64,000 nt of DNA, taken from assembly GCA_018696595.1 (NCBI GenBank), contig JABHQW010000008.1:363758-427757 (forward strand), written 5' to 3'. This stretch comes from Candidatus Woesearchaeota archaeon (GTDB lineage Archaea > Nanobdellota > Nanobdellia > Woesearchaeales > GW2011-AR9). Below the pieces are notes generated by a model, which ran no database searches, was not told the DNA's origin, and worked only from the letters and a program-made list of their open reading frames with translations. Below, one piece after another: positions 1-37,333 of the stretch. The stretch's first letter is position 1; every line of letters begins with the position of its first letter. The position numbers were made by a program, and so were the translations under genes.

Positions 1-307
1 GAATCGTAAGTTAACCCAGTATCTTGTCTAATTTTGCCTCTTTCAATGTCTTTTGCGCTAATACAATAAATTACTTCTAAGTTTTTTAGTTTTTTTAGGA
101 GTTGAACTTTTGCATCAGCTTCATATCCAGGAAGAACTCGAGATGCATGTCCATCATAAAGAAGTTTTCCACCAAACTCTAAATATAGCTTATTGTCAAA
201 TTTAGAAAGTCTTTCTTTAATCGCTTTTGTTTGCGCTATTAAATATTTCTTAGTACTAAAACCCCTTTTCATAGAGGAAATGTTTTTTAGTTATTTAAAT
301 AACTTTC

Positions 308-1405
308 TTACTTCTCTTCAACAATAACTTTATTTCCTTCAATCTTAAAACCAACTTCTAAGAAATGTTCGGTAACATAAATATTTGTTTTTGTGTGGTT
401 ACTAATTTCTCTGGTAAGAATTTCTGAATTTGGTAACAAAGCCATAAACTGAATTAACTGATCTGCCAGGTTTCTATCAACGGCAGTGTCAGAAGAGATC
501 TCTTTCTTTAACATCTCTGCGGCTTCTTTCCCAATTACTTCAGATAGTTTACCTTTCTCCACTAAAGCATCTCCTCCTAGAATTACAGGATTATCAAAGT
601 CCACTTTACCACCTAAACTAAAAATTCCCCAAAGAACAATCTCTCCTCCAATAGAAAGGGTATTTGCATATTCTACTCGTAAGTTCATTGGAACTTTATA
701 ATCTCGTAACAAATTTTCTGCAGACTTTTTAATTCTCTCACCTATTTCTTTGTCTTCTAATTCTGATGACAGATTAACTATTCCGCGGATTTGTTCTAAT
801 TCTCCTTGAGAAACTAATTTTATTTTTGCTGTTCTAAAATTCAAATCTTCATAAAACTGTGCAAAGTTATCATAATCATTTAATTTAAATCTTGGATTAA
901 TCATCAGATGAACTTCCCCGCCACCTTTTGGATAGTACCCTTTCTTAATAACTTTTAATTCAATTTTTTCAACTAACCTTTGCAAGTGTGGAAGTAAAAT
1001 ATTTTGTAAGTAATATACAGAAGCTTGCCATTTACCACAAGTTCCGCCTTTAATTTTCAAAGTAACTTTTCCTGGTGCAAATAAACAAGGAAGAATTATT
1101 GCTTGTAAGAATAGAGTAATACTTCCTGCTGTGCCAATATCAACTTCATAAACTCCTCTTTTAATTTTTCCTGGGTGATACCAAAATTCTTTTGTGCCTA
1201 ATTCTACTTCAGAAGTTTTTGCTCCACAAATTTCTTTCAGGGTCTTAATAGCATGAAGATGTTGCGGTTTTAATCCGCCTTTGTCACCTTTACCTGCTCT
1301 GATTTTGTCAACAGAAAACGGTTTTCCAGTTAGTGTAGAAAGTGCAAGAGCAGTTCTAACTAATGCTCCTCCTCCAGATCCGTATGCGCCATCTAGTTTA
1401 ATCAT
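308..1405 (-). CDS. rtcA: RNA 3'-terminal phosphate cyclase
   Basis: LDGAYGSGGGALVRTALALS N-terminus, DIGTAGSITL, GYYPKGGG and C-terminal His motif (SNHTKTN) typical of RtcA. Confidence 0.93.
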   Translation of the reverse strand: MIKLDGAYGSGGGALVRTALALSTLTGKPFSVDKIRAGKGDKGGLKPQHLHAIKTLKEICGAKTSEVELGTKEFWYHPGKIKRGVYEVDIGTAGSITLFLQAIILPCLFAPGKVTLKIKGGTCGKWQASVYYLQNILLPHLQRLVEKIELKVIKKGYYPKGGGEVHLMINPRFKLNDYDNFAQFYEDLNFRTAKIKLVSQGELEQIRGIVNLSSELEDKEIGERIKKSAENLLRDYKVPMNLRVEYANTLSIGGEIVLWGIFSLGGKVDFDNPVILGGDALVEKGKLSEVIGKEAAEMLKKEISSDTAVDRNLADQLIQFMALLPNSEILTREISNHTKTNIYVTEHFLEVGFKIEGNKVIVEEK

Positions 1406-1439
1406 AATAAGTTAGAATTCATTATTGTTATTTAATATT

Positions 1440-1763
1440 TTAGTAAAATCCGTCATTATCTATGTGGATCTTAATATTTTCTGCAGAAATTTTTACTGAA
1501 GCACAATGTCCGTCTATGCCTCTAATCCCTTCTATCTTTTTAACTAACTTTATTGCTTCGTCTGAATCAATATCTTTAATTGAAATAATATCAGCAGGTT
1601 TAATCTTGGCATGTTCTCTTATTGACATGATGAGGTGATATTTATTTTCTTTTTCATATGGAGTTCTTTCTTCGTCAAAAATGCTGAGGTCAATTTCTAG
1701 GTTAACTTTATCAGGTAATAATTTCCTGACTTCTTCTTCCTCAAAAAATTTGCCATATGTCAT
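1440..1763 (-). CDS. hypothetical protein
   Basis: 107-aa ORF with protein-like composition, co-oriented with rtcA; no recognised motif. Confidence 0.6.
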   Translation of the reverse strand: MTYGKFFEEEEVRKLLPDKVNLEIDLSIFDEERTPYEKENKYHLIMSIREHAKIKPADIISIKDIDSDEAIKLVKKIEGIRGIDGHCASVKISAENIKIHIDNDGFY

Positions 1764-1849
1764 AATAAAGATTTTTTAAACACTTATATTTAAATTTTTA
1801 GTTTTAAAACAAAAAACTTAATAAATGAACTTAGTTCTTAGTTGTTTGT

Positions 1850-1986
1850 GGGGACATAGTATAACCTGGCTAGTATAGGAGCCTCCAGTAATGGAGAGTT
1901 GAGTCTTACGGCGATGATAAACTTTTCCTGAAGCAAGCTTTAGATCTGGGTTCGAATTTGTAAAAACGAAAGTCCCAGTGTCCCCA
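1850..1986 (+). tRNA. tRNA-Trp(CCA) with two introns (37/38: 1889-1935; 59/60: 1957-1972)
   Basis: Acceptor stem GGGGACA/TGTCCCC; anticodon stem GGAGC/GCTTT with CCA at 1885-1887; T-stem CTGGG/CCCAG; removing both inserts restores CTCCAGA and TTCGAAT loops; CCA end not encoded. Confidence 0.92.
1889..1935 (+). ncRNA. intron-encoded box C/D guide RNA (predicted 2'-O-methylation of C34 of tRNA-Trp)
   Basis: TGGAG (1892-1896) is antisense to C32-A36; D'-like TTGA at 1899-1902 places G1894 (fifth nt upstream) opposite C34; C'-like ATGATAA 1914-1920; D box CTGA 1928-1931; matches the known archaeal tRNA-Trp intron guide arrangement. Confidence 0.75.
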
Positions 1987-2041
1987 CTCTTTTCTTTCTA
2001 CAAAACATATATAAACTAATTTCATTTAATTATCCATAGTA

Positions 2042-3217
2042 ATGTTAAAAAAAAGAGGTTCAGAAGAGAAAGGATTCTTTGCTAATCATAAACTAGCGAT
2101 TGCTTCAACTACATTAATCGGAACAATCATTGGGGCCGGGATTTTAGGAATCCCTTACGTTATTGCTAAAACAGGATTTGTTTATGGCTTACTTTTAATT
2201 ATTCTTTTAGGCGGGGCTTATGTTTTTCTTAATCTTTTTCTGGGCGAAGTTATTCTGAGAACTAAGAAACAACATCAACTTCCGGGGTATGCGGAAAAGT
2301 ATTTGGGTAAATGGGGCAAACGACTAATGACTTTGTCAATGTTTATAGGTCTTTATGGTGCATTAACTGCTTACTTAATTGGAGAAGGTGCAGCATTACA
2401 TACCATTTTTGGTTGGGGTGTTCCGTTAATGTACACTTTCATCTTTTTTGCAATAACTGTTTACATTATTTATCGGGGAATAAAAGCAACTGGTAAGGCA
2501 GAACTTATTTTGATCTCTTTACTCTTTCTAGTTGTTGTTTTCATCGGTCTATTATCCTATAATCAGATTCAGTTTTCTAACTTGGTTCATTTTGATCTCA
2601 CAAAAATACTTGTGCCTTACGGTGTAATAGTTTTTGCTTTTGTTGGCTTACCCTCAATTCCAGAAATGCAAGAGGAATTGGGTAGAGAAAAGAAAAAGAT
2701 GAAAAAAGCAATTCTTGTGGGTTCAGTAATTCCAATTGTTCTTTACATTGCTTTTTCCTTAATCATTATTGGGATTGTTGGTTTGGAAAACTTTGAACTT
2801 TTAGGTCCTAATGAAAGAATTGCGACAATCGCTTTAAGTTTATACTCTAACCAAATCTTGGGGATATTCGCCAATTTGCTAGCAGTTTTAGCGATGTTCA
2901 CTTCATTCTTAACAATAGGAACTGCCTTAGTTGAGATTTTTGAGTATGATTATGGTGTTTCTAGAAGGACCTCTTTATTGTTAACTTTTTCATTGCCTCT
3001 TCTAATTGTTTTGTTTAAACTCACCTCATTCATCGTTGTTTTAGGGATTACTGGTGCAATAGCGGGGGGTTTAGATGGTATTTTAGTGATGTTAATGTAT
3101 TGGAAAGCCAAGAAACTTGGTGATAGAAAACCAGAATATACAATGGGGAAACATTACATTTTGGGTGTCTTTTTGATTCTGATGTTTGTTGTTGGGATCG
3201 CTTATCAATTTTTCTAA
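2042..3217 (+). CDS. aromatic amino acid permease (Trp/Tyr, HAAAP family)
   Basis: GTIIGAGILGIPY motif, about 11 TM segments. Confidence 0.85.
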   Translation: MLKKRGSEEKGFFANHKLAIASTTLIGTIIGAGILGIPYVIAKTGFVYGLLLIILLGGAYVFLNLFLGEVILRTKKQHQLPGYAEKYLGKWGKRLMTLSMFIGLYGALTAYLIGEGAALHTIFGWGVPLMYTFIFFAITVYIIYRGIKATGKAELILISLLFLVVVFIGLLSYNQIQFSNLVHFDLTKILVPYGVIVFAFVGLPSIPEMQEELGREKKKMKKAILVGSVIPIVLYIAFSLIIIGIVGLENFELLGPNERIATIALSLYSNQILGIFANLLAVLAMFTSFLTIGTALVEIFEYDYGVSRRTSLLLTFSLPLLIVLFKLTSFIVVLGITGAIAGGLDGILVMLMYWKAKKLGDRKPEYTMGKHYILGVFLILMFVVGIAYQFF

Positions 3218-3262
3218 AACTTTTCTTTTTGGGTCGTTACTACTTAAAGTTAGCAATAGTTA

Positions 3263-3277
3263 CGAAACTTTTATATA
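3263..3277 (+). promoter_or_regulatory. archaeal BRE/TATA promoter of the surface-protein genes
   Basis: CGAAAC-TTTATATAT upstream of 3339; near-identical element at 7828-7842. Confidence 0.6.
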
Positions 3278-3338
3278 TTGGGTGTTACTTTTGAGTAGAA
3301 AATAGTCAAAAATCTTATTTTTATGGGGGAAATTTAAA

Positions 3339-5093
3339 ATGAATATTAGAAAAATTGGAAGAAATGTTCTTAATGTTAGTAAATATACTGTTGCTGGTGC
3401 TACTTTGGGTGCTGGTTTATTTTTTGGTGGTCAAGCTTTAGCTGAAGAACCAAAAGATGTTGTTGAGCAACCTGACGCTTATGTAGAAGTTCAATCTGAA
3501 GTTCAGCCTGAACAAAGAGATCTTTATGATACTCAAACAGCTGAAGTTGCTGCGCCTCTTGAAGTTACTGTAACTCCTGAAGTTACTAATTATGAAACTC
3601 AATCAGCTCCTGAAGTCGTTGCACCTCTTGATGTTCAAACACCTGATGTTGCTACACCTCTTGAAGTTGCTGTAACTCCTGATACTCCTTCTCCGAGTTT
3701 CTCTTGGGGTGATTTGCTGAACGTGAATGGGCAAACTGTTATGCAAACTCCAACTGTAGAGCCTGTTGCAGAAACTAATCCCGTAGATTACAAGGGAACA
3801 ACTCCTGCGGTTGCAGATCCGGATGTAGCAATTGTTAATCCTGCAGAACCCGTTCTAGAACCACAATCTCCTATTCCTGTTAATGAGGATGGAACTGCTT
3901 ACAAGCTTGGACAAAAACCTGTTGTCGCTGATACTGTTGCAGGACCTAATGCTGTTGATTACAAAGGAACAACTCCCGTAGTTGAACCAGCTGTTGCAGA
4001 TAATCCTGTAGCTCCTTTAGAAGAAAAAGTTGCTGAAGTTAAAACAGAAACACCTTCTCATGCTGGGAAATTCTCAGTAAGTGGATGTGAAAAAGGACAA
4101 GAAGCTTATTTAGTTGCAACCGAAGACGGAAGTAACTTGAAAGCAGAATGTAAAACTCCTAAGAAGAAAGGGCCAAGATGTGTTGAACAGTATGAAGGAA
4201 ATGGTCGATGCATTGAACCCGTTTTAGCAGAATCTCATAATGTGCTTACTCCTGCTGTAAAAGGATTATGTCCTGGAACAACTCTATGTTATGATAGTTC
4301 TGAAGTTGACAATCTTGGTGAACAAATTGCTTTAGTTGCAAGAGTTTCTGAAGATAATAGAACCTATATCCATCAATTGGATGAATCTGTTAGCCAAAAT
4401 GGTCAAAATCTTAGTGAGTTAAGTGAAGTTGTTGATCAAAATGAACAAATTATTGATGAGTTAGATACTGCAGTTGATAAAAACTCTCGTGGTATTGGTT
4501 CTCTTGATAAAAAAGTTTCTGATCAATATAAAGTTAAATCTACTGATAAAAATAATGTTGAAGTTAACTTAAATCTTAGAGGAACGGTTTCTGCCGGAAT
4601 TGGTGCTGACTCAGACTCAATTGCTGTTTACATTGAACCTGAATTAAGTGTTGGCGGAACTTTCGGAGAACATTTCGGATTATTTGGTTATGTTAACGGA
4701 AATATTCCTGCATATGACCCTTCAGAAACTGATAACCATGAAAATGATTTAGGAATCATGACTGAAAATGTAGATACTGAAACAAACACTTCTCGAAGAG
4801 CTGGAGCTGGTTTAATGGCTAGGTTTCCTGTTGCTGATGGTGCTGTTACTCCTTATGCTAAAGTAGGAGCTGCTTTTATGCAAACTGAAGCAAGTAAAGA
4901 TATTTCTCGTAATGGGGAAGAAATTGATGCCCTGTCTGACAATTACAATGGCGTTGGTTTAGAAGGCGCATTAGGAATTGACTTTGACTTTGGTCAACCA
5001 GGCGGAATTGTTTTAGGTTTAGAAGGAAGAGCAAATTCCTTTGGTGGCGGATACGGCGCAGGATCTGGAATGTTAGGATACACTTTCAAATAG
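3339..5093 (+). CDS. secreted protein: Pro/Val/Glu-rich repeats, small Cys domain, coiled coil, C-terminal 8-stranded OmpA-like beta-barrel
   Basis: Signal peptide ending QALA-EE; repeats VDYKGTTP x2 and (A/T)PL(E/D)V x3; eight amphipathic strands including VTPYAKVGAAF and terminal GMLGYTFK. Confidence 0.75.
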   Translation: MNIRKIGRNVLNVSKYTVAGATLGAGLFFGGQALAEEPKDVVEQPDAYVEVQSEVQPEQRDLYDTQTAEVAAPLEVTVTPEVTNYETQSAPEVVAPLDVQTPDVATPLEVAVTPDTPSPSFSWGDLLNVNGQTVMQTPTVEPVAETNPVDYKGTTPAVADPDVAIVNPAEPVLEPQSPIPVNEDGTAYKLGQKPVVADTVAGPNAVDYKGTTPVVEPAVADNPVAPLEEKVAEVKTETPSHAGKFSVSGCEKGQEAYLVATEDGSNLKAECKTPKKKGPRCVEQYEGNGRCIEPVLAESHNVLTPAVKGLCPGTTLCYDSSEVDNLGEQIALVARVSEDNRTYIHQLDESVSQNGQNLSELSEVVDQNEQIIDELDTAVDKNSRGIGSLDKKVSDQYKVKSTDKNNVEVNLNLRGTVSAGIGADSDSIAVYIEPELSVGGTFGEHFGLFGYVNGNIPAYDPSETDNHENDLGIMTENVDTETNTSRRAGAGLMARFPVADGAVTPYAKVGAAFMQTEASKDISRNGEEIDALSDNYNGVGLEGALGIDFDFGQPGGIVLGLEGRANSFGGGYGAGSGMLGYTFK

Positions 5094-5117
5094 AGTTTGA
5101 TGTGAGGTAAACTTAAA

Positions 5118-7772
5118 ATGAAAAATACTTTTACTTTTTTTACAATTTTCCTATTTGTACTATCTATTGTTCCATTAGCAGCAGCAGCAGATGTTTCTGT
5201 TCAAGCTGAATGGTCAGTTAATGGAGAAGCTGCAGGTAAAATATTAAATGCTGAAACTGGAGAAGGAACTACTTTCGCAGTGATGGTTAATGCTTTAAAT
5301 GATAATTTAAACGATTATAACTTCTTTGTTAAAGTTTACGATGGCAGTTATGATGAGATGGTTAATCCTGGTTGGGAAACTACAAACGTAGAATCTTTCC
5401 CTGGCGGAACAACTATGTATACTGTTAATTATAATGCTCCTTTAACCGAAGGAACTTACTTTATTGTTGCTTCAGCATACTATGCTCAAGAAAACGATGA
5501 AGGATTTGATACACTAACATTAATTGTTACAGAAGCTCCTTGTTTAGATACAGACGATGACGGCGTTTGTGATGAAGATGAAATCTTGGGATGTACAGAC
5601 ACAGATGCAAATAATTACAATCCAAATGCAACTGAAGAAGACGACAGTTGTGAATACGATTGTTTAGATTCCGATGGCGATGGTGTTTGTGATGAAGATG
5701 AAATCTTAGGGTGTACTGATTCAGAAGCAGAGAATTTTAATCCAAATGCAACAGAAGAAGATAATAACTGTGAATATGCTTGTACAGATTCTGACAACGA
5801 TGGTGTTTGTGATGAAGATGATCTTTGTCCAGATGAACCTGGGCTATTAGATAATAATGGTTGTCCTGAAGAAGTTATTAATGAAGCTCCCATTATTGAA
5901 GTTTTTGGAACTAACAAAATTAATGAAATGAGTTCATTAAACTTAATCGTTGAAATTGAAGATGAGGATATTGTTAACTTAGAAGTTAAGGTTGAAAAAT
6001 GTGAGATTTATATTTTTGGGCTTTGCTTATTTGCAAGTTACACAGATGCTCCTGAAAATTCAGAATTAACTTTTGTTTCTGAAAACAAATATGCTTTTAC
6101 TTGGACTCCGGATTACCGTTTTGTAAAACATCCTGCAACAGAAAGATCTATTCGATTAGTTTTTATTGCCGATGACGGAGAAGCAAAAGATTATAATTTA
6201 CATAAAGTAACTGTTAACGATGTTAATCAATTACCTGTTTTAAGTTCAGAAGGCGTAGAAGATGTTGATGAAGGAAAAAGCTTTGTTGCTACTTTTACTG
6301 CCATTGATGCTGATGAAGAAGACGTCTTGGACTTGGGGATTATTTTAATGGGATATGAATTCATGGGTAATGATCTTCCTGATTGGATCTCTATGGAAAG
6401 TATTGCAAAGAATACAATTCAATTAACCGTAACTCCTGATTGTGATAGTGCTGGAGATTACTTCCTTAGATTTACTGCTAACGATGGACTATTCTTGGCG
6501 GAACTAATGGAACCATTTACTGTTACCGAAGCTTGTGATGCTCCAATTCTTGGATGTATGGATGAGTCTGCATTAAACTACAATCCTGAAGCAACCGAAG
6601 ATGATGAAAGTTGTGAATATACTTGTAGTGATGTGGATAACGACGGAGTTTGTGATGAAAATGATCTTTGTCCGCATGAAGTGGGTACTGAGAATAACAA
6701 AGGATGTCCTGAAGAACCTGTTGCTGATAATATGGTTCCTGTTCTAAGAGGATTAATGGATCAATCTGTTTATGCAGAAGAGAAATTAACATTTCAAATT
6801 CATGTGACTGATGACAATGATAAAAACATGGACTTAATTGTTGAAGGACTTCCAGAAGGAGCAGAAGTATTTGCTTCTAATCGGGTTGCACCTTTGCCTT
6901 TAAAAAACATCATGCAGAAATTATTTTTGAAAACAGAGTATAAACACACTTTTATTTTCAAATGGGTTCCAACAGAAGCACAAGTTGGTGAATACTTAGT
7001 AGGATTTACTGCTGACGATGGTTTAGCTAAATCGGAACAAAAGACAATCAAAATCACTGTATTAGAACAACCAGTTGAACCTTGTGTTGATACAGATTCT
7101 GATGGTATTTGCGACGAAGTTGATCTTTGTCCGTTAGATCCAGAAGATTTTGATGGTATTGAAGACGAAGATGGTTGTCCTGAAGATGATCCAGTTAACC
7201 ATGCACCTTTAATCTTATCAAATCCAACTACTGTTGCAACCGAGAATCATGATTACACTTACCAATTTTTGGCGGAAGATCCAGACGGAGACGAGATAAC
7301 TGTAACTTTAGTTGACGCTCCTGAAGGGATGACTATGTCTGAAGATTGGTTAGTTGAATGGATTCCTGAAGATTTAACTAATGGCAAAGTGGCTATTAGT
7401 GTAACTGACGGAGAGTTTGTGGTAACACAGAAGTTTACAATTGGCGTTGCTGAAGCTTACAAGAATGTTAAGCTAGCATCCGTACAATTGGCGGCTGAAG
7501 AAGTTGTTGCTGGTGGTTATTTGTCTACTCAAATCAAAGTAGAAAATAACGGCGAGAAAGATATGGGTGATTTAAAGATTAGTGTGATTGTTCCTGAGCT
7601 TGGATTGAAGAAGTCTGTGAGTGAGTTTGACTTGAAACCAGGGCAAAGTAAGAACAAGAACATTAATCTACAGTTACCTTATTACGCTTACTCTGGTGAG
7701 TATCTAGTTAAGGTAAGTGTTAGTAACAGCAATTTCCATGAACAAACCTATAGGTTGGTAACAATCTATTAG
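5118..7772 (+). CDS. large Ca-binding surface protein (DxDxDG/TSP3-like repeats, cadherin/Ig-like domains, C-terminal CARDB-like domain)
   Basis: Signal peptide; C(L/T/V)D(T/S)DxDG(V/I)CDExD repeats; ILGC(T/M)DxxAxN(Y/F)NPxATExDxxCEY x3; NHAPLILS Ig-like unit; VENNGEKD CARDB-like end. Confidence 0.8.
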   Translation: MKNTFTFFTIFLFVLSIVPLAAAADVSVQAEWSVNGEAAGKILNAETGEGTTFAVMVNALNDNLNDYNFFVKVYDGSYDEMVNPGWETTNVESFPGGTTMYTVNYNAPLTEGTYFIVASAYYAQENDEGFDTLTLIVTEAPCLDTDDDGVCDEDEILGCTDTDANNYNPNATEEDDSCEYDCLDSDGDGVCDEDEILGCTDSEAENFNPNATEEDNNCEYACTDSDNDGVCDEDDLCPDEPGLLDNNGCPEEVINEAPIIEVFGTNKINEMSSLNLIVEIEDEDIVNLEVKVEKCEIYIFGLCLFASYTDAPENSELTFVSENKYAFTWTPDYRFVKHPATERSIRLVFIADDGEAKDYNLHKVTVNDVNQLPVLSSEGVEDVDEGKSFVATFTAIDADEEDVLDLGIILMGYEFMGNDLPDWISMESIAKNTIQLTVTPDCDSAGDYFLRFTANDGLFLAELMEPFTVTEACDAPILGCMDESALNYNPEATEDDESCEYTCSDVDNDGVCDENDLCPHEVGTENNKGCPEEPVADNMVPVLRGLMDQSVYAEEKLTFQIHVTDDNDKNMDLIVEGLPEGAEVFASNRVAPLPLKNIMQKLFLKTEYKHTFIFKWVPTEAQVGEYLVGFTADDGLAKSEQKTIKITVLEQPVEPCVDTDSDGICDEVDLCPLDPEDFDGIEDEDGCPEDDPVNHAPLILSNPTTVATENHDYTYQFLAEDPDGDEITVTLVDAPEGMTMSEDWLVEWIPEDLTNGKVAISVTDGEFVVTQKFTIGVAEAYKNVKLASVQLAAEEVVAGGYLSTQIKVENNGEKDMGDLKISVIVPELGLKKSVSEFDLKPGQSKNKNINLQLPYYAYSGEYLVKVSVSNSNFHEQTYRLVTIY
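5539..5874 (+). repeat. intragenic tandem repeats (acidic Cys/Asp units)
   Basis: Near-identical DNA units such as TGTGATGAAGATGAAATCTTGGG / ...CTTAGG and AATCCAAATGCAAC. Confidence 0.8.
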
Positions 7773-7779
7773 GTATGAC

Positions 7780-7818
7780 TATTGCGGGGTAGCTATTAAG
7801 TGTAGCTACTCAACAATA
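7780..7818. promoter_or_regulatory. inverted repeat/hairpin upstream of a BRE-TATA
   Basis: GTAGCTA-N7-TAGCTAC core extended by TATTG/CAATA arms. Confidence 0.45.
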
Positions 7819-7827
7819 CTAAACCAA

Positions 7828-7842
7828 CGAAAACTTTATAAA
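7828..7842 (+). promoter_or_regulatory. BRE/TATA promoter
   Basis: CGAAAAC-TTTATAAA upstream of the 7919 gene; GGAGG SD before its ATG. Confidence 0.6.
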
Positions 7843-7918
7843 CCAAAGCGGTTTTAAAGACTAAAACACAAAAAAATAACATTCATAAAAGGATAAATTT
7901 TTTTTGGAGGAAGAAAAA

Positions 7919-9169
7919 ATGAAAAAACTTTTAAGTATAATGGCTTTATTCGTAATTAGCTTATTGACTTTATCAATGGTTAGTGCATTAGATGCAAATG
8001 ACCTAGTAATTAAGTCTATTGAAGTTAATGGCCACAATGTAGAAGATGGCGAAGTTCTTGCTGTTGAAGAAGGAGAAACTTTAGATGTTGAAGTTGGCTT
8101 ATTAGCTAACGCTGGTGCAGAAAATATTGAAGTGGAAGTTGAAATTTCAGGTTATGAATACAACGACCAAGAAGATATGGAAGCTACCGCACACATCGAT
8201 AATATCCAAGCTGGAAATACAAAATATTTTGACTTGGAAGTAACTTTGCCTAAGAAATTAGACAAGGATGAATACATGTTAAGAGTTCGTGTAATGGATA
8301 AGAATACTGCGGCAATTACCCACAATATTTTATTATCAATCGAACCTACAAGACATGGAATCGATATTGCAGACGTTGCTTTATCCCCTGGAGAAACCCA
8401 AAAAGCTGGTAGATCTTTTTTAGCTACTGTTCTATTGGAAAACTTCGGAGATAAAACTGAGAAAGACGTTAAAGTTGAAGTTGCAATTCCTGCATTAGGA
8501 GTTAAAGCTACTGAATACGTTGACGTTGTTGTAACCGATAACAATAATGTAGATTATGAAGACGTTCCTGAAATGTTCTTACCTCTTCCTGCTACTGCAG
8601 AAGCTGGTGCTTACGACATGATCGTTACAGTTAAATACGATGACTTAAGGGAAACTGTTAGCCAAACTTACAAAGTTAATGTTTTAGCTAACGAACTATT
8701 CCAAAAGTCTGACAAGTTAGTTTTAGCTGTTGGTCCGGAAAGTCAAACTGTTGCTGCTGGTAACACTGCTAGTTATGCTGTTGCATTAACAAACGCAGGA
8801 TCAACTTCTAAAGCTTATGTTTTAGATGTAGTTACTGGTGACTGGGCTACCGCAACTGTTAGTGATGCTTTAGTTGTTTTAGAACCTGGAAAGAACAAAG
8901 TTGTTCAAGTAGATGTAACCGCTGCTAGTAATGCTGTTGAAGGTCAACACGTTGCAAGCGTTGCTATTATGTCTGGTGACGAAGTTCTTGAAACCATCGT
9001 TCTAAAAGCAAACGTAGCTGGCACCGCTAGTGAGAGTTTTAGCTTAAGAAACGGTTTGGAAATCGCTTTAATCGTCTTAGTTGTTCTATTAGTAATCATT
9101 GGTTTAATCATTGGTTTCAGTAGATTAAGAAAAGACGACGAAGACGAAGAAGAACAAACTTACTACTAA
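7919..9169 (+). CDS. membrane-anchored surface/S-layer-associated protein with CARDB-like Ig domains
   Basis: ATG 7919 after GGAGG; signal peptide (VSA-LD); LLENFGDKTEKDV CARDB-like motif; C-terminal TM and acidic tail. Confidence 0.8.
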   Translation: MKKLLSIMALFVISLLTLSMVSALDANDLVIKSIEVNGHNVEDGEVLAVEEGETLDVEVGLLANAGAENIEVEVEISGYEYNDQEDMEATAHIDNIQAGNTKYFDLEVTLPKKLDKDEYMLRVRVMDKNTAAITHNILLSIEPTRHGIDIADVALSPGETQKAGRSFLATVLLENFGDKTEKDVKVEVAIPALGVKATEYVDVVVTDNNNVDYEDVPEMFLPLPATAEAGAYDMIVTVKYDDLRETVSQTYKVNVLANELFQKSDKLVLAVGPESQTVAAGNTASYAVALTNAGSTSKAYVLDVVTGDWATATVSDALVVLEPGKNKVVQVDVTAASNAVEGQHVASVAIMSGDEVLETIVLKANVAGTASESFSLRNGLEIALIVLVVLLVIIGLIIGFSRLRKDDEDEEEQTYY

Positions 9170-9324
9170 GTAAGTGGGGACGTTTAATCTTCCTCCAATT
9201 TTTTATTTTTTTTCTCTTTTTTTGGGAGGGCTTTTATTTTTCTTATAATCTTTTTTCTATGTTTTTTTAATACTGTTTATTAGTTCTATAACCTTTTTAA
9301 ACTCTAGATTTTGTTACTAGCTTA

Positions 9325-10428
9325 ATGGAAATAGCAATAATTGGGGCTGGTCCAATCGGCAGTTACGCTGGTTATTTACTAGCTAAGTCTGGACATAATG
9401 TTAATATTTATGAGCGGAAGAAAGAGATTGGTAAGCCCGTTCAATGTACTGGCATATTTACTTCTGACTTTGATGGATTTTCTTTTCTAAACAAAAATAA
9501 ATTTTTAGTTAATACTATTAATAAAACGGAAATCAATTTTCCTAATGGTAGCAAGATTGCTGTTAATCAGAAAGAATATGTGGTTTGCAGAACTAAGTTT
9601 GATAACCACTTAGCTAATCTGGCTGTTACTGAAGGAGCAAAAATTTTCTTGCAACATTCATTTATTAGGAAAGAAGGTGAGAATCTAGTTGTTAAAGATC
9701 TTGCTAATGATTGTGAAAAAGAAATTAAACCAAACATAGTAATCGCTGCAGATGGCCCCTTATCAAGCGTAGCAAAAGCTTATGGTTTCTATCATCATCA
9801 GAGACAACACAATTATGGTGTGCAGGCTTTAGTGGGGGGGAACTTTGATTCTAATACAGTACAAACGTTCTTTGGTAAAGATATTGCTCCTGGTGTGTTT
9901 GTTTGGGTTGTTCCTGAGAGTTCAACCATGGCGAGAGTTGGTTTAGCTACAGAAAAAGATGCCCGTAAATACTTTGAGAAATTTGTTCAGAATAAAGATT
10001 ATGAACTCTTAGAAATGCAGGCAGGTACAATTCCTATCTATCATCCTTCACAAGAATTGGTTAAAGATAGCTGTTATTTGCTTGGAGATGCTGCTGGGTT
10101 CGTTAAAGCGACTACTCTTGGTGGTGTAATTCCTGGAATGAAACAGGCGGAAGCTTTAGTTAGATGTTTAAATGATTCTGATTTGGATTATGAAGAAGAG
10201 CTTCAACCCATCATTAGTAGGCTCAAGTTACATCTGAAAATTAGAAAAGTTCATGATCGGTTTAGTGGAGAAGATTGGGAAAAGTTAGCTACTTATTCTA
10301 ATAATCCTAAAGTTTTGAAATTATTGAACACTTATACACGGGAGAATGTAACTACGTTATTTAGAAAGATTATTTGGGCAGAGCCAAGAATGTTATATTT
10401 TAGTAAGTATTTAGGCGAATTTCTTTAA
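9325..10428 (+). CDS. geranylgeranyl reductase family FAD-dependent oxidoreductase
   Basis: IIGAGPIG Rossmann motif, PVQCTG, IAADG, LLGDAAGFVKATTLGG. Confidence 0.88.
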   Translation: MEIAIIGAGPIGSYAGYLLAKSGHNVNIYERKKEIGKPVQCTGIFTSDFDGFSFLNKNKFLVNTINKTEINFPNGSKIAVNQKEYVVCRTKFDNHLANLAVTEGAKIFLQHSFIRKEGENLVVKDLANDCEKEIKPNIVIAADGPLSSVAKAYGFYHHQRQHNYGVQALVGGNFDSNTVQTFFGKDIAPGVFVWVVPESSTMARVGLATEKDARKYFEKFVQNKDYELLEMQAGTIPIYHPSQELVKDSCYLLGDAAGFVKATTLGGVIPGMKQAEALVRCLNDSDLDYEEELQPIISRLKLHLKIRKVHDRFSGEDWEKLATYSNNPKVLKLLNTYTRENVTTLFRKIIWAEPRMLYFSKYLGEFL

Positions 10429-11151
10429 CACTCTCAGATACTTTTTATTCAATCCACCTAAGCGGAAGATAATTATTTCATTTACGTTTGCTTCTCTAGC
10501 TAACTTCAAATCCATTTCTAATTGTTCTAATTTGATATTCGGTTCATTGCCGTGGATTCCTACTGAGATTGTTCCCAATGCTACAAGATAATTCTTTCCC
10601 AGTTCTCTAACTCCTGTTTCTAATTCTTTTCTTACATATTCTTCTTTGAAATTGTGCAAAGAATGATAGATCATTTTGATTACTTTTACTTTTTTACTTT
10701 TATAATGTAAACCCCAGAATCTTAATAACAACTGGCTTAATTTACTTTCTGGATAATATTCTGCCAAATAAACTGGTTTGTTGTAATTGTGAATAAATTC
10801 CTTAATTAATGATTTGTTTCTAAAGAAATTTAGGAACTGGGTTACATAAAGAAAAGGATTTTGTCTTGTTGGCAATTCTAGGTCTAGCATTATTGCTGTT
10901 TTTTTTGTCTCTTTAAAGATTCTCTTCAAAGCCGATCTTTTGCTGAAAGGAGAAATCCAATATCCTTCGCTTCTTTTTAAAATTGGCCAGTAAATAAATT
11001 CTTTGATGTGTCTGTTCTTAATGCTTTTTTTAATTTCATTAAATTCCTTTAAAGAAGGGGCTGCTAGATATAATTTCGTTGGAAAATTGATTAATCTCAG
11101 TTTACTTAAGTTTTCTTTTGTGGGAAACTCTTCGAAAAAGCTTATTTTCAT
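10411..11151 (-). CDS. hypothetical protein
   Basis: 246-aa ORF with globular alpha/beta pattern; no confident family. Confidence 0.7.
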   Translation of the reverse strand: MKISFFEEFPTKENLSKLRLINFPTKLYLAAPSLKEFNEIKKSIKNRHIKEFIYWPILKRSEGYWISPFSKRSALKRIFKETKKTAIMLDLELPTRQNPFLYVTQFLNFFRNKSLIKEFIHNYNKPVYLAEYYPESKLSQLLLRFWGLHYKSKKVKVIKMIYHSLHNFKEEYVRKELETGVRELGKNYLVALGTISVGIHGNEPNIKLEQLEMDLKLAREANVNEIIIFRLGGLNKKYLRVLKKFA

Positions 11152-11220
11152 GGATGTTAGAATAATCTTGTTGTTAATATGTTTTTTGGAAATAAAAAAA
11201 TTAAGAAAAAAAATAAAAAA

Positions 11221-12126
11221 TTAAAAGGTAGTTCCAACAAATCCACCTAAGTTGTAATCAAGAGTTCCTTCATTTCCAACTTCAGTTAGGTCTGCAGCAG
11301 CTCCAATTTGGTATTTGTCCATTAATGTTACTCCTGCTCTTAATTTCTGAACACTAAACTGGTGGCCAGTTTCTCCAACACTAGTTAGGTCCTCTAAGTT
11401 TATTAGCAAATCAACTTTTTCTCCTAACTCTGGGCTGTAGCTTAGGTTTACTACAAACTCTCCGTCTGGGCTTTCCATTGTTTTTACTGTTGCTAAGGCA
11501 TACACTGCAAAATCTCCTAGTGCTTTGAAGTATTGCAAACCTGCTCTTGGAATTACTCCCATTCCTGGTGCTGCCTGTACTTCTCCTACAATGTCTAAGC
11601 CATCAACTAAGTTATAGCTCAAGTCCATTAAACCAAAAAAGCTTACTTCTCCTTCATAGTCTGAAGTGGTCATTTGTCTCAAGAACAAATTGGTTTTTGG
11701 AGCGATACTTGTGGACACTTTTGTGTCTAAGGTTGTTGATTGGTGTCCTGCTGATAATTCTACTGATCCGCTTGCTGGGGTTTCATCTGCTAGGCCAACT
11801 CCTGGTGCTAATATTGCACAAGCCACTCCTGCTGCATAAGCTAAGTTTCTGGGGGTGGCTAATCTTTGTAATGCTTCTTTTGCTTCTGCAGTTATTTTCT
11901 CTAAGATAGTTGGTTCTCTAACTAATGCGATCCCTCTTTTATCGCTAATAACTTTTCCTTCTCCTGCAACTTCTTGTATAATTCTCTCTTCTGCAGTAAG
12001 TGGTGCTTCAGCAACTTTTGCTTCTTCATCAATATCTTCTGGAAGATATAATCTTCCTTCGGTTTTCCAATATCTTTTTCCTCCAGTTTCAATAAGTTCT
12101 GAAGGTAAAATCATTTCATTTGTCAT
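11221..12126 (-). CDS. putative ~12-stranded outer-membrane-type beta-barrel with N-terminal extension and internal signal peptide
   Basis: SD GGAGGAG 9 nt upstream; hydrophobic segment ending GVGLA-DE at aa ~113; alternating amphipathic strands; C-terminal YNLGGFVGTTF. Confidence 0.7.
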   Translation of the reverse strand: MTNEMILPSELIETGGKRYWKTEGRLYLPEDIDEEAKVAEAPLTAEERIIQEVAGEGKVISDKRGIALVREPTILEKITAEAKEALQRLATPRNLAYAAGVACAILAPGVGLADETPASGSVELSAGHQSTTLDTKVSTSIAPKTNLFLRQMTTSDYEGEVSFFGLMDLSYNLVDGLDIVGEVQAAPGMGVIPRAGLQYFKALGDFAVYALATVKTMESPDGEFVVNLSYSPELGEKVDLLINLEDLTSVGETGHQFSVQKLRAGVTLMDKYQIGAAADLTEVGNEGTLDYNLGGFVGTTF

Positions 12127-12168
12127 TTTTCATATCTCCTCCTTTTTTAGGCAGAAAGGCAAACTGCT

Positions 12169-12188
12169 TAACTACTATTTAGTAGTTA
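12169..12188. promoter_or_regulatory. perfect palindrome, putative operator
   Basis: TAACTACTA-TT-TAGTAGTTA lying over the expected start site of the minus-strand TATA (TTTATATA at ~12197-12204). Confidence 0.65.
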
Positions 12189-12271
12189 TGTTTGTTGGTA
12201 TATAAATGCTCTCTCCCCTCGAAGGGGCGAAAAAAGAAAGATTTATAACTAAAACAAGCTTATTTAATCTA

Positions 12272-20834: not shown

Positions 20835-21605
20835 TTATTTAAATATCTTTCTCCAATCTTCCTTATAAAACTTAACAAAGAGATATAGTGCAACAATTAC
20901 CATAATCAAACTAAACCATTGGCCAATCGTTAATTTGAACCATAAAACGTCTTCGCGATAGAAATCTACTAAGAATCTTCCTAATCCTTCCCAAAAAACG
21001 AAGTTCAGAAATATAAACCCTGGCTTAAATGATTTCCAGAATGTTAGCAAGAAAAGCCAACCAGTAACAATAAATCTTTTCCCTGCTGCGTATAATGTAG
21101 ATGGGTGCCTACAACCATCATATCCTTTAAACAATACGCACCACTTACCTTGGAATGGTCTACCAACTAATTCTCCATTAATGAAATTAGCAATTCTTCC
21201 CAAAGCTAAAGCAAACAAGGCGGGAATTGACATAGCATCAGCCAATTTCCAGAAATTAAATCTATGTTTCTTACAATAAATGTAAGCTGCAACTACAATT
21301 CCTACAAATCCACCGTGAAAACTCATCCCTCCTTCCCAAAATTTGAGAAAGTTAAATGGATTTGACAAGTAGTAACTTGGTTGCCAAAAAACTTCAAATA
21401 CTCTTGATCCGATTAATACTCCGACCATCAACCAAAATGCAAAATCCCAGATCTGTTCTTTGTTTAATTCTAGTTTGCCTTTTTTTCTAAGATAATATAA
21501 CCAAGCAATAGACAGAAAGAATCCCAGGACATACATTAGCCCGTACCATCTGATTTCTAACGGCCCTAAGGAAAGTAATGTTGGGTTAAGATTGTGAATG
21601 TACAT
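20835..21605 (-). CDS. lgt: prolipoprotein diacylglyceryl transferase
   Basis: IRWYGLMY, GGMSFHGG, GRIANFINGELVGR, RHPSTLY and GRFLVDFYRE motifs of bacterial Lgt. Confidence 0.93.
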   Translation of the reverse strand: MYIHNLNPTLLSLGPLEIRWYGLMYVLGFFLSIAWLYYLRKKGKLELNKEQIWDFAFWLMVGVLIGSRVFEVFWQPSYYLSNPFNFLKFWEGGMSFHGGFVGIVVAAYIYCKKHRFNFWKLADAMSIPALFALALGRIANFINGELVGRPFQGKWCVLFKGYDGCRHPSTLYAAGKRFIVTGWLFLLTFWKSFKPGFIFLNFVFWEGLGRFLVDFYREDVLWFKLTIGQWFSLIMVIVALYLFVKFYKEDWRKIFK

Positions 21606-35256: not shown

Positions 35257-35257
35257 A

Positions 35258-36469: not shown

Positions 36470-36509
36470 AAAGTTAAATAAAATATAAAAGAAGGAATAA
36501 CAAAATATT

Positions 36510-37217: not shown

Positions 37218-37333
37218 TTTTTTTTCTAGTTTTAAGTGTTTTGTGATGGTTAAATAGTAAAATATCTTTTAAACTAGCTAAATCTTTATAAATCATGATA
37301 TGGAGTAACAGGTAAAAGGGTGAGGTGAGCTTC

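What the first reader, a model, noticed from the sequence alone, without database searches (positions are those of the whole stretch)
3339..5093. Outer-membrane-type 8-stranded beta-barrel on a long stalk, encoded by an archaeon
Seen: a signal peptide, Pro/Val/Glu repeats, a Cys domain, a heptad coiled coil (~4365-4515), then eight amphipathic strands (4557-5090): VEVNLNLRGTV / AVYIEPELSVG / FGLFGYVNG / RAGAGLMARF / VTPYAKVGAAF / GVGLEGALGIDFDF / VLGLEGRAN / GSGMLGYTF. The PY-x-x-G strand and the terminal aromatic strand resemble OmpA/OmpW-type barrels and the BamA beta-signal. Established: such barrels are hallmarks of diderm bacteria and organelles, and archaea are not known to have a BAM system. 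Inference: an adhesin-like barrel for an outer membrane of its own, or one inserted into a Gram-negative host membrane. The gene has an archaeal BRE/TATA and is followed by DPANN-type surface genes, which argues against simple contamination.
Basis: partly seen in the sequence, partly recalled or inferred. Interest (0 to 1): 0.82.

Follow-up and report, generated by a model that had tools for sequence, protein, structure and literature searches.

The report
Bacterial-type membrane barrel on archaeal stalk
A tiny marine symbiont-type archaeon encodes an exported, probably three-stranded stalk protein ending in the kind of eight-stranded membrane barrel otherwise typical of Gram-negative bacterial outer membranes, next to a second, porin-like barrel gene. 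The genome shows none of the bacterial machinery that normally inserts such barrels.

Summary
Window 3339-5093 (+) is an intact 584-aa gene with a signal peptide, a Pro/Val/Glu/Thr spacer, a six-Cys module, ten heptads of coiled coil and a C-terminal all-beta domain.

The barrel model (pLDDT 77) aligns best with OmpA, OprF, OmpW, Ail and OmpX (Z about 14.8). The family profile matches E. coli OmpX in register to the terminal Phe (hhalign 90.7%). Orthologues score just under the Pfam OMP_b-brl cut-off.

The gene is archaeal. It lies inside a 428-kb contig of a 97%-complete Woesearchaeota-type genome, is syntenic in 12 loci of relatives, and is bridged by contigs from independent metagenomes. 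It occurs in every genome of four genera.

Following an earlier scan note on this same DNA, I confirmed a second family 6 kb away (11221-12126, -). It is a 12-stranded porin-like barrel (pLDDT 95; PcoB Z 17.5) found in 31 of 401 sampled genomes of the phylum.

No Omp85/BamA, TamB, LptD or LolA was found, and no Skp above the cut-off. Which membrane holds these barrels, a partner cell's or a second membrane of the archaeon, remains open.

The parts
3263..3277 (+). BRE/TATA-like element (CGAAAC + TTTATATA), 62-76 nt before the ATG
   Evidence: Read. Not tested against chance in AT-rich DNA; no transcript data.
3325..3329 (+). GGGGG, a possible ribosome-binding site 10-14 nt before the ATG
   Evidence: Read; inference only.
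3339..5093 (+). CDS of the stalked barrel protein P0001 (584 aa plus stop)
   Evidence: A 583/584-identical copy lies on an independent JGI assembly. It is a single copy in the genome.
3339..3443 (+). Signal peptide, aa 1-35, probable cleavage after ALA
   Evidence: Sequence. All full-length relatives start with a K/R-rich n-region, a hydrophobic core and an AxA-type site.
3444..4058 (+). Pro/Val/Glu/Thr/Ala-rich spacer, aa 36-240. Seen only in this member of the family.
   Evidence: Composition; the alignment shows it as an insertion relative to all relatives.
4059..4310 (+). Cys-rich module, aa 241-324, six Cys. Family motifs are C-x5-G-x-G-x-C and G-x-C-P-G-x(2-12)-C-Y-D.
   Evidence: No Pfam match. 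A DsbA-domain protein is encoded at 37325-38938.
4311..4535 (+). Coiled-coil stalk, aa 325-399, ten heptads with Asn at every second d position
   Evidence: Sequence. Three copies are predicted as a parallel in-register trimer, ipSAE 0.58 against a best control of 0.00. Contacts fall only at aa 330-396 with 3-4 spacing.
4536..5090 (+). Eight-stranded OmpX/OmpA-type beta-barrel, aa 400-584, ending GYTFK
   Evidence: Model; fold matches; sequence kinship; face analysis.
5118..7772 (+). P0018, 884 aa. Signal peptide, repeated Asp-rich D-x-D-x-D-G-x-C-D-E-D motifs (read as thrombospondin-type-3-like, no Pfam match), cadherin/He_PIG-like Ig domains, C-terminal CARDB-like domain, no membrane anchor. 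It starts 24 nt after the barrel gene.
   Evidence: A homologue starts directly downstream of the barrel gene in 12 of 12 related loci.
7904..9169 (+). P0019, 421 aa. Signal peptide, CARDB/NPCBM_assoc Ig-like domains, C-terminal transmembrane helix and acidic tail (S-layer-like surface protein).
   Evidence: conserved in this position in L003-L005.
11221..12126 (-). P0022, 301 aa, a second barrel family. It has an 85-aa N-terminal extension, a signal-peptide-like segment, and a 12-stranded porin-like barrel ending GGFVGTTF.
   Evidence: Model pLDDT 95.1, pTM 0.85. PcoB Z 17.5, NanC 15.7, KdgM-type 15.6. Found in 29/113 genomes of the family and 31/401 of the phylum.

Best explanation
Core claim (about 0.8 likely). 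This is a genuine, vertically inherited archaeal gene for a Sec-exported protein that trimerises through a ten-heptad coiled coil. Each chain ends in a complete eight-stranded transmembrane beta-barrel descended from the bacterial OmpX/Ail/OmpA class. The barrel is the membrane anchor.

By OmpA/OmpX topology both barrel termini and the short turns lie on one side. The stalk, Cys module and Pro-rich spacer therefore point back towards the cell that made the protein. A long polar three-stranded hairpin sheet (strands 4-6) protrudes on the far side. So the barrel must sit in a lipid layer outside the archaeon's cytoplasmic membrane. The rest of the protein spans the gap, probably held at the cell surface by the strictly co-inherited secreted Ca-binding/Ig-like protein P0018.

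Insertion must work without Omp85/BAM. That is physically plausible for 8- and 12-stranded barrels, which fold into bilayers on their own in vitro (established for OmpA, OmpX, PagP and OmpLA).

Favoured sub-claim (about 0.38 for the whole statement, which is the confidence given). The target membrane is the envelope of a partner cell, most likely the outer membrane of a Gram-negative bacterium to which this episymbiont-type archaeon attaches. P0001 would then be a tether and the nearby 12-stranded P0022 a channel.

Shown: gene, domains, fold, remote homology, distribution, synteny, lack of Omp85. Inferred: membrane embedding, trimer, topology, partner membrane, role of P0018.
For: Fold:
- The AF2 barrel model matches OmpA, Ail, OmpX, NspA, OprF and OmpW first in Foldseek, E 4e-6 to 1e-2.
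- VIA-align gives Z 14.8 to the OmpA TM domain (rmsd 2.4 A, 134/137 residues) and to OprF. Natural soluble barrels score Z 10.5 or less.

Homology:
- phmmer reaches an OMP_b-brl protein at E 2.2e-5 library-wide.
- Orthologues hit PF13505 at 27.8, 22.9 and 20.5 bits against a cut-off of 28.7.
- Every other weak Pfam hit that covers the barrel repeats or recurs is an outer-membrane barrel family.
- hhalign of the family profile against E. coli OmpX gives 90.7%, E 1.3e-6, over 86 columns ending on the terminal F.

Membrane-type pattern in 18 family members:
- 44 belt columns are hydrophobic but variable (2% charged, 2 columns conserved at 0.8 or more).
- The 40 alternating columns are 29% Gly and 30% charged, and more conserved (9 columns at 0.8 or more, including R486, G510, E542, G546).
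- The outer halves of strands 4-6 are polar on both faces.
- A C-terminal aromatic residue is kept in 17 of 18 members.

Trimer: ipSAE 0.58 against a best control of 0.00. The mark was reached by 20/30 solved homo-pairs and 1/23 single chains in the calibration; runs share at least 52% of contacts; partner pLDDT at least 59.

Archaeal and conserved:
- RLI/ABCE1, GGR, TrmB and aS21 are neighbours.
- Present in 11/113 genomes of the family, which is every genome of four genera.
- P0018 homologue directly downstream in 12/12 loci.
- Even depth and bridging contigs in four independent runs.

No Omp85 in this genome (97% complete) or in five other carriers.

For a bacterial partner:
- The genome encodes an SLT lytic murein transglycosylase, 80.5 bits. 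The same search matches 8 bacterial and no archaeal control genomes.
- Sequences diverge fast (25-35% identity within one family).
- Distribution of both barrel families is clade-limited or patchy.
- P0018 looks like an adhesin but has no route across a second membrane of the archaeon's own.
- The literature leaves bacterial hosts of DPANN open (PMC8204110, PMC10936187).
Against: - No experiment and no expression data exist.
- I could not read the model's coordinates. Which face points outwards is inferred from conservation and composition, not measured.
- P0001 itself has no Pfam hit, and the best family hits stay just under the curated cut-off.
- The widened profile A4 finds nothing in the PDB by sequence.
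- Insertion of an OMP from outside into the LPS-covered leaflet of a bacterial outer membrane has no precedent.
- A free 12-stranded barrel such as P0022 would be hard to deliver to another cell, and fits a membrane of the archaeon's own better.
- No host is known.
- The trimer test used three copies, whereas the calibration used two, and I did not compare dimer or tetramer.
Confidence: 0.38

Rival explanations
1. The archaeon has a second, outer membrane of its own. P0001 is a periplasm-spanning tether, analogous to OmpM/SlpA or OmpA/Lpp. Its barrel sits in that outer membrane, and P0022 and its paralogue are the porins.
For: - At least three barrel genes occur in one 1.19-Mb genome: P0001, P0022 and a 46%-identical paralogue at G000:C3:28872-29477.
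- P0022 is a signal peptide plus a compact 12-stranded porin-like barrel with 2-4-residue turns on both sides. That makes most sense as a resident channel.
- Stalk topology and the Pro-rich spacer resemble periplasm-spanning proteins.
- Lgt (218.8 bits), two MacB/FtsX permeases plus an ATPase, and a DsbA fusion lie in the same window.
- P0022 relatives occur in several families and orders, including a closed one-contig genome.
- A paper mentions a possible 8-strand barrel relative in the double-membraned Altiarchaeales (PMC12228718).
Against: - No Omp85, TamB, LptD or LolA, and only sub-threshold Skp matches.
- P0022-type genes appear in only 31/401 sampled high-quality genomes and 13/41 of the own family. 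P0001-type genes appear in 4 of 58 genera. That is patchy for a basic envelope feature.
- The neighbouring S-layer-like P0019 is anchored by a C-terminal helix, as in ordinary single-membrane archaea.
- P0018 looks extracellular but would be trapped under such a membrane.
- Lgt and MacB-type transporters also occur in single-membrane organisms.
Confidence: 0.3
2. The C-terminal domain is a soluble eight-stranded barrel (avidin, YceI or lipocalin-like) with a hydrophobic core, and the protein is an ordinary secreted or S-layer-associated protein.
For: - Soluble 8-stranded barrels also match the model: designed barrels at Z 12.0-12.5, natural ones (Cap15, BcnB, avidins, YceI) at Z 8.9-11.0.
- Alternating hydrophobicity alone fits either orientation.
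- P0001 has no Pfam hit of its own.
Against: - The nine best structural matches are all membrane barrels, eight natural outer-membrane proteins and one designed transmembrane barrel, ahead of any soluble barrel.
- Sequence kinship is to OMP families only.
- The non-hydrophobic face is 29% Gly and carries the invariant Arg, Glu and Gly residues, while the hydrophobic face is variable. This is the reverse of a soluble core.
- The hydrophobic pattern stops after about 10-12 residues per strand, although strands 4-6 continue.
- The terminal G-x-G-Y-x-F is as in OmpX.
Confidence: 0.12
3. The barrel inserts into the archaeon's own cytoplasmic membrane from outside. It replaces the usual C-terminal helix as a surface-protein anchor.
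For: - This reading needs no second membrane and no partner.
- An 8-stranded barrel has no open pore and need not be leaky.
- In P0022 and two relatives, the barrel follows a possibly uncleaved membrane segment after only about 7-10 residues.
Against: - No cytoplasmic membrane of any organism is known to hold such barrels (established knowledge).
- The long polar hairpins of strands 4-6 would have to cross into the cytoplasm.
- A 12-stranded porin-like P0022 in an energised membrane would be harmful.
- The neighbour P0019 shows that the normal helix anchor is in use.
Confidence: 0.08
4. Bacterial contamination or a chimeric assembly: the barrel gene is not archaeal.
For: The fold and its nearest sequence relatives are bacterial. 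The nearest Atlas clusters to P0022 are from Bacteroidota.
Against: - The gene lies inside a 427,757-bp contig between archaeal genes.
- An independent assembly shows the same order.
- Orthologues sit in the same archaeal neighbourhood in other genera.
- Contigs from four other runs bridge both gene ends at even depth.
- The genome shows 0.38% contamination.
- A P0022 relative lies in a closed one-contig genome.
Confidence: 0.01

Closest known systems
OmpX / Ail / Lom and the OmpA transmembrane domain (Pfam clan of PF13505 OMP_b-brl, PF06316, PF01389) of Gram-negative bacteria
   Same: Eight antiparallel strands. Termini and short turns lie on one side, with a protruding sheet on the other as in OmpX. 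The interior face is Gly- and charge-rich, and the sequence ends G-x-G-Y-x-F. Remote sequence kinship; Z 14.8 to OmpA and OprF.
   Different: Encoded by an archaeon with no Omp85. It is fused behind a 400-residue N-terminal spacer, Cys module and trimeric coiled coil. P0001 itself scores below every Pfam threshold, and its Phe is penultimate (…TFK).
OmpM / SlpA-type outer-membrane tethers of Negativicutes and Deinococcus-Thermus (named from my own knowledge)
   Same: Order of parts: an N-terminal binding module, a trimeric coiled-coil stalk on the periplasmic side, and one complete C-terminal barrel per chain. The predicted trimer has three separate barrels.
   Different: Those barrels have 16-30 strands and the N-terminal module is an SLH domain that binds cell-wall polymers. 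Here the barrel has 8 strands, no SLH match was found, and a disulfide-type Cys module takes its place.
Trimeric autotransporter adhesins (YadA, Hia, SadA; from my own knowledge, including the Asn-at-d coiled-coil layers described for them)
   Same: Signal peptide, coiled coil with Asn at d positions, C-terminal barrel anchor, predicted trimer.
   Different: In those adhesins each chain gives only 4 strands to one shared 12-stranded barrel, and the stalk passes through it to the outside. Here each chain has a full 8-stranded barrel, the stalk leaves on the turn side, and there is no match to the YadA anchor family.
PcoB/CopB, NanC/KdgM and DUF2490-type 12-stranded outer-membrane barrels (for the neighbour P0022)
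   Same: 12 strands, about 190 residues, terminal Phe. PcoB Z 17.5 with 180/198 residues aligned. The nearest Atlas clusters are about 203-aa Bacteroidota proteins at TM 0.89-0.91.
   Different: No detectable sequence match to any Pfam or PDB entry. It is archaeal, and some members carry an 85-residue N-terminal extension.
Oligomeric 8-strand barrel superfamilies around Bdellovibrio PopA (PMC12228718)
   Same: Small barrels that work as oligomers. That paper notes in passing a possible distant relative in DPANN Altiarchaeales. This was the only hint of such barrels in archaea that my literature searches found.
   Different: PopA barrels contact each other to form a lipid-trapping chamber. Here the predicted contacts are only in the coiled coil. 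No kinship to PopA was tested.

Membership tests
8-stranded outer-membrane barrel class (OMP_b-brl clan: OmpX/Ail, OmpA-TM, OmpW) | Closed antiparallel barrel of eight strands with both termini on the same side | tested here: met
   AF2 model, pLDDT 77. OmpA 3nb3_A Z 14.8, rmsd 2.4 A, 134/137 residues; OprF Z 14.8; OmpW Z 14.6. Foldseek top hits are OmpA, Ail and OmpX.
8-stranded outer-membrane barrel class (OMP_b-brl clan: OmpX/Ail, OmpA-TM, OmpW) | Sequence match to the family model above the curated threshold | tested here: inconclusive
   P0001 has no hit. Orthologues score 27.8, 22.9 and 20.5 bits against a cut-off of 28.7. hhalign of the family against OmpX gives 90.7%. phmmer reaches an OMP_b-brl protein at E 2.2e-5.
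8-stranded outer-membrane barrel class (OMP_b-brl clan: OmpX/Ail, OmpA-TM, OmpW) | Lipid-facing hydrophobic belt with a polar or small interior | tested here: inconclusive
   The sequence pattern fits. The hydrophobic face is variable and 2% charged. The other face is 29% Gly and 30% charged and more conserved.
8-stranded outer-membrane barrel class (OMP_b-brl clan: OmpX/Ail, OmpA-TM, OmpW) | C-terminal beta-signal ending in an aromatic residue | tested here: met
   P0001 ends GYTFK. 12 of 18 family members end in F, and the others end in …W/F-K, …C-K or …Y/W followed by a short tail. The ending aligns with GVGYRF of OmpX.
8-stranded outer-membrane barrel class (OMP_b-brl clan: OmpX/Ail, OmpA-TM, OmpW) | Assembled by an Omp85/BamA insertase of the same cell | tested here: not met
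   PF01103 has no match in this genome (97% complete) or in five other carriers, while 7 of 14 control genomes match above the cut-off. The only POTRA match is sub-threshold, E 0.018.
8-stranded outer-membrane barrel class (OMP_b-brl clan: OmpX/Ail, OmpA-TM, OmpW) | Located in an outer membrane | not testable with these tools
   Needs fractionation, imaging or refolding experiments.
Trimeric autotransporter adhesins | YadA-like anchor: four strands per chain forming one 12-stranded barrel | tested here: not met
   The model has eight strands per chain. No Pfam YadA-anchor match was found. In the trimer prediction the barrels do not touch.
Trimeric autotransporter adhesins | Parallel trimeric coiled-coil stalk | tested here: met
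   Prediction only. ipSAE 0.58 against a best control of 0.00. The mark was reached by 20/30 solved pairs and 1/23 single chains; runs share at least 52% of contacts; pLDDT at least 59. Asn at d positions 340, 354, 368 and 382.
OmpM/SlpA-type tethers | N-terminal SLH domain | tested here: not met
   No SLH match for P0001 at E up to 1.
12-stranded outer-membrane barrels (PcoB/CopB, NanC/KdgM), for P0022 | Twelve-stranded closed barrel with a terminal aromatic residue | tested here: met
   pLDDT 95.1, 12 strands. PcoB Z 17.5, NanC 15.7, KdgM-type 15.6 and 14.9. Ends GGFVGTTF.
12-stranded outer-membrane barrels (PcoB/CopB, NanC/KdgM), for P0022 | Sequence match to a described family | tested here: not met
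   No Pfam family is shared by the 27 members, and there is no PDB match. Only language-model and structure leads point to Bacteroidota clusters, DUF2490 and CopB.

The most novel reading that the evidence does not exclude
A clade of marine Woesearchaeota-type DPANN archaea uses bacterial-type transmembrane beta-barrels (an 8-stranded barrel on a trimeric stalk and a 12-stranded porin-like barrel) in a membrane other than their cytoplasmic membrane, assembled without any Omp85 insertase. Either this is the first archaeal outer membrane carrying OMP-type barrels, or these are the first archaeal proteins that plant barrels into the outer membrane of a bacterial partner. The second case would also imply bacterial hosts for DPANN archaea.
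Probability: 0.6. Interest if true: 0.92.

Novelty: new variant of a known kind. Interest (0 to 1): 0.85.

Why it matters
Transmembrane beta-barrels of the OMP class are treated as a signature of diderm bacteria and their organelle descendants. Their assembly is thought to depend on Omp85 proteins.

Here two such barrel families are fixed in archaeal genomes that lack Omp85. Only small barrels (8 and 12 strands) occur, and these are the ones that can fold into bilayers unaided.

That makes three open questions testable on concrete proteins:
- Can OMP-type barrels be assembled in vivo without BAM?
- Do some DPANN archaea have a second membrane?
- Do some DPANN archaea live on bacterial rather than archaeal hosts? 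A lytic murein transglycosylase in the same genome points that way.

The conserved gene pair P0001-P0018 is a concrete candidate for the physical link between a DPANN cell and its partner.

Tried and rejected
- Pfam and PDB sequence searches with P0001 itself gave only sub-threshold coiled-coil noise: Fib_alpha, MCPsignal, DUF16, reovirus sigma-1 and spike.
- Word-indexed homologue searches found only the near-identical copy, six family members and one fragment. No stand-alone bacterial relative was found this way.
- The widened profile A4 against PDB sequences found nothing.
With P0001 alone it found no relative in genome contigs.
- The POTRA match at E 0.018 and the OmpH/Skp matches at E 0.05-0.3 are below the cut-offs. 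The archaeal control genomes match equally, so I rejected both.
- LolA, TamB and LptD had no match.
- P0020 is a third candidate with a signal peptide, a coiled coil and a Gly/Ala-rich beta C-terminus ending in W. It has no relatives in 113 family genomes, no Pfam match and only weak Atlas leads on a poor model. It is left as a lead.
- P0021 is a CARDB protein, not a barrel.
- P0017, the 526-aa gene upstream of the orthologue in L003, is a different coiled-coil membrane protein, not a paralogue.
- Expression: no RNA holder was listed.
- A single contig joint 3351->12024 in run X8 has only 23 letters on one side. I treated it as a chance or repeat join.
- I considered and rejected an autotransporter-type shared barrel (8 strands per chain) and a 24-stranded joint barrel (no barrel contacts).
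Full report
**The gene and its parts**

Window 3339-5093 (+) is an uninterrupted ATG-started ORF of 584 codons. Read from the sequence, it has five parts:
- A signal-peptide-like start, aa 1-35, ending ALA|EE.
- A 205-residue stretch, aa 36-240, with V 17%, P 14%, E 11%, T 11% and A 10%.
- A module with six Cys at 250, 271, 281, 291, 311 and 317.
- Ten clean heptads, aa 330-396. The d positions alternate between Leu/Val and Asn (N340, N354, N368, N382).
- A Gly-rich C-terminal 185 residues.

Upstream lie TTTATATA (3270-3277), preceded by CGAAAC, and a GGGGG 10-14 nt before the ATG. I did not test these against chance in this 32% G+C DNA.

**Whose gene it is**

The window is C3:363758-427757 of a 1.19-Mb, 8-contig genome, 97% complete with 0.38% contamination.
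- The neighbours are archaeal: RNA cyclase, geranylgeranyl reductase, a TrmB regulator and RLI/ABCE1 at 816 bits.
- The closest RLI genes lie in MAGs titled Candidatus Woesearchaeota, Nanoarchaeia or Nanoarchaeota. Some are titled, inconsistently with these, uncultured Methanosarcinales.
- A 583/584-identical protein lies on an independent JGI assembly in the same gene order, including ribosomal protein aS21.
- Contigs from four further runs cover 1-13000 at an even 5-7x. They bridge permease to P0001, P0001 to P0018, and P0022 to its neighbours.
- Twenty listed runs from 15 studies of marine water hold the locus.

Contamination or chimerism is excluded.

**The barrel**

An exhaustive phmmer search with aa 395-584 found 12 proteins among 1.8 billion. 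Eleven are fragments or proteins with the same architecture. One, P0009, is a tandem OMP_b-brl protein (PF13505 76.7 bits) hit at E 2.2e-5.

With an 11-sequence alignment, AlphaFold2 gave an all-beta model (pLDDT 77, pTM 0.70).
- Foldseek ranks OmpA, Ail, OmpA again, NspA, OmpX, OprF and OmpW first.
- VIA-align gives Z 14.8 to the OmpA TM domain (2.4 A over 134/137 residues) and to OprF, 14.6 to OmpW, and 14.1 to NspA.
- Natural soluble 8-stranded barrels reach Z 11 or less, and designed ones 12.0-12.5.

By sequence:
- Three orthologues hit PF13505 at 27.8, 22.9 and 20.5 bits against a cut-off of 28.7, in register over most of the model.
- The remaining weak hits in the barrel region are Autotransporter, Ail_Lom, OmpA_membrane, DUF481 and BBP2.
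- The family profile aligns to E. coli OmpX with 90.7% probability, ending on the terminal Phe.

**Is it a membrane barrel or a soluble one?**

I could not read the coordinates, so I used the 18-member alignment.
- Within the roughly 10-12-residue belt of each strand, 44 columns are hydrophobic but variable. They are 2% charged and 6% Gly, with 2 columns conserved at 0.8 or more.
- The 40 alternating columns are 29% Gly and 30% charged and more conserved. Nine columns are conserved at 0.8 or more, including R486, G510, E542 and G546.
- This is the pattern of lipid-facing against lumen-facing residues in OMPs, and the reverse of a soluble hydrophobic core.
- The outer halves of strands 4-6 are polar on both faces (21% hydrophobic, 37% charged). 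They form a protruding sheet as in OmpX.
- The family ends G-x-G-Y-x-F or close variants.

I rate membrane embedding at about 0.8.

**The stalk**

Three copies of aa 330-584 are predicted to form a parallel, in-register trimer.
- The median ipSAE is 0.58 and the best control is 0.00.
- The mark was reached by 20 of 30 solved homo-pairs and 1 of 23 single chains in the calibration.
- The runs share at least 52% of contacts, and the partner pLDDT is at least 59.
- All confident contacts are a/d positions of aa 330-396, and the barrels do not touch.
- Asn at alternate d positions is, to my knowledge, typical of trimeric coiled coils of autotransporter adhesins.

The model supports trimerisation but does not show it. 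I did not test other stoichiometries.

**Distribution and partners**

- The barrel profile finds the gene once in this genome.
- It is found in 11 of 113 genomes of the same GTDB family, which is every genome of four genera (3/3, 1/1, 1/1, 6/6).
- With the first profile (A2), no other family had a match among 200 genomes of the order and 400 of the phylum.
- All members share a signal peptide, the Cys motifs, a helical region and the barrel. The Pro-rich spacer is peculiar to P0001.
- In 12 of 12 loci a homologue of the next gene, P0018, starts directly downstream. The Trp/Tyr permease lies upstream in seven.
- P0018 has a signal peptide, repeated D-x-D-x-D-G-x-C-D-E-D motifs that I read as thrombospondin-type-3-like, cadherin/He_PIG-type Ig domains and a C-terminal CARDB-like domain, but no anchor.
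- P0019 is an S-layer-like protein with a C-terminal helix.

**A second barrel family**

I tested it.
- P0022 ends GGFVGTTF.
- A single-sequence search found relatives in 29/113 genomes and 20/58 genera of the family. Most are 200-250 aa, that is a signal peptide plus the barrel, and this genome has a 46%-identical paralogue.
- With 27 sequences the model reaches pLDDT 95.1 and pTM 0.85, with 12 strands.
- The best matches are PcoB (Z 17.5, 180/198 residues), NanC, a KdgM-type porin, OmpLA, Tsx and KdgM. The first 22 rows are all membrane barrels, 20 natural and two designed.
- The profile finds the family in 31 of 401 sampled high-quality genomes of the phylum. These span several families and two further families of the same class, including a closed one-contig genome.
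- It has no Pfam or PDB sequence match. The nearest Atlas clusters are about 203-aa Bacteroidota proteins, DUF2490 and CopB.

**What is missing and what else is present**

- Omp85 is absent here and in five other carriers.
- TamB, LptD and LolA have no match. Skp and POTRA have only sub-threshold matches that archaeal controls also give.
- Present in the window are Lgt (218.8 bits), two MacB/FtsX permeases with an ATPase, and a DsbA-domain fusion.
- Elsewhere in the genome is a membrane-anchored SLT lytic murein transglycosylase (80.5 bits). The same search matches eight bacterial and no archaeal control genomes.

**Interpretation**

With OmpA/OmpX topology the stalk leaves the barrel on the turn side. 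The barrel must therefore sit in a lipid layer outside the cytoplasmic membrane, with the stalk pointing back to the cell. Only 8- and 12-stranded barrels are present, the sizes known to fold unaided in vitro. That fits assembly without BAM.

Two readings remain.
- A partner cell's outer membrane. In favour: the SLT enzyme, fast divergence, clade-limited distribution, and an adhesin-like P0018 that could not cross an outer membrane of the archaeon's own. I put this at 0.38.
- An outer membrane of the archaeon's own. In favour: several barrel genes, a resident-porin-like P0022, and an OmpM-like order of parts. Against: patchy distribution, no lipid or protein transport machinery, and a helix-anchored S-layer-like neighbour. 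I put this at 0.30.

A soluble barrel (0.12) and insertion into the archaeon's own cytoplasmic membrane (0.08) are less likely.

**Literature**

Five full-text searches and four papers read found no description of OMP-type barrels in DPANN archaea.
- The nearest item is a one-sentence remark on a possible Altiarchaeales relative of an 8-strand family (PMC12228718).
- PMC8204110 and PMC10936187 leave bacterial hosts of DPANN open and do not mention outer-membrane proteins.

Noticed in passing
window 11221-12126 (-); paralogue at G000:C3:28872-29477 (L057): P0022 belongs to a family of 12-stranded porin-like barrels ending in Phe (pLDDT 95; PcoB Z 17.5). It is present in 31/401 sampled genomes of the phylum and has no Pfam or PDB sequence match. 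It probably deserves a report of its own.
   Followed up: yes
window 11872-12126 (-), aa 1-85 of P0022; also L029 and L045: Three family members carry a conserved 85-residue N-terminal extension before the signal-peptide-like segment. This could be an unusually long signal region or an uncleaved membrane anchor, which would constrain where the barrel can sit.
   Followed up: partly
window 11644-11888: Contigs of runs X9 and X10 replace this stretch, the start of the P0022 barrel, by 37 other letters (table 5c). It may be a strain variant or a divergent relative; unexplained.
   Followed up: no
G000:C3:336476-338461 (+), L025:2477-4462, about 25 kb before the window: P0020 is 661 aa. It has a signal peptide, an N-domain, a long coiled coil and a Gly/Ala-rich beta C-terminus ending GFAVQATW. 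The layout matches P0001, but it has no relatives in 113 family genomes and only weak porin-like leads.
   Followed up: partly
window 20835-21605 (-): A bacterial-type prolipoprotein diacylglyceryl transferase, Lgt (PF01790, E 8.6e-65), in an archaeal genome.
   Followed up: partly
window 34042-37217 (+): Two MacB_PCD+FtsX permeases and an ABC ATPase in a row, a LolCDE/MacB-like layout.
   Followed up: partly
window 37325-38938 (+): A 537-aa protein with a DsbA/Thioredoxin_4 domain at aa 238-399. It suggests disulfide formation outside the cytoplasm, which fits the Cys modules of the P0001 family.
   Followed up: partly
G000:C6:266158-267564 (+), L084:661-2067: A 468-aa protein with hydrophobic N-terminal segments and a C-terminal SLT lytic murein transglycosylase domain (80.5 bits, over the cut-off). 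It hints at an attack on bacterial cell walls.
   Followed up: partly
window 5118-7772 (+): P0018 carries many D-x-D-x-D-G-x-C-D-E-D Ca-binding-type repeats, each followed by a conserved 'GC(T/M)D…N(Y/F)NP…A(T)E(E/D)D…CEY' unit. Its N-terminal 400 residues are the part conserved next to every barrel gene.
   Followed up: partly
L003:8392-9972: In one related genus a 526-aa coiled-coil protein with one transmembrane helix (P0017) is inserted between the permease and the barrel gene. It is absent from this window.
   Followed up: no
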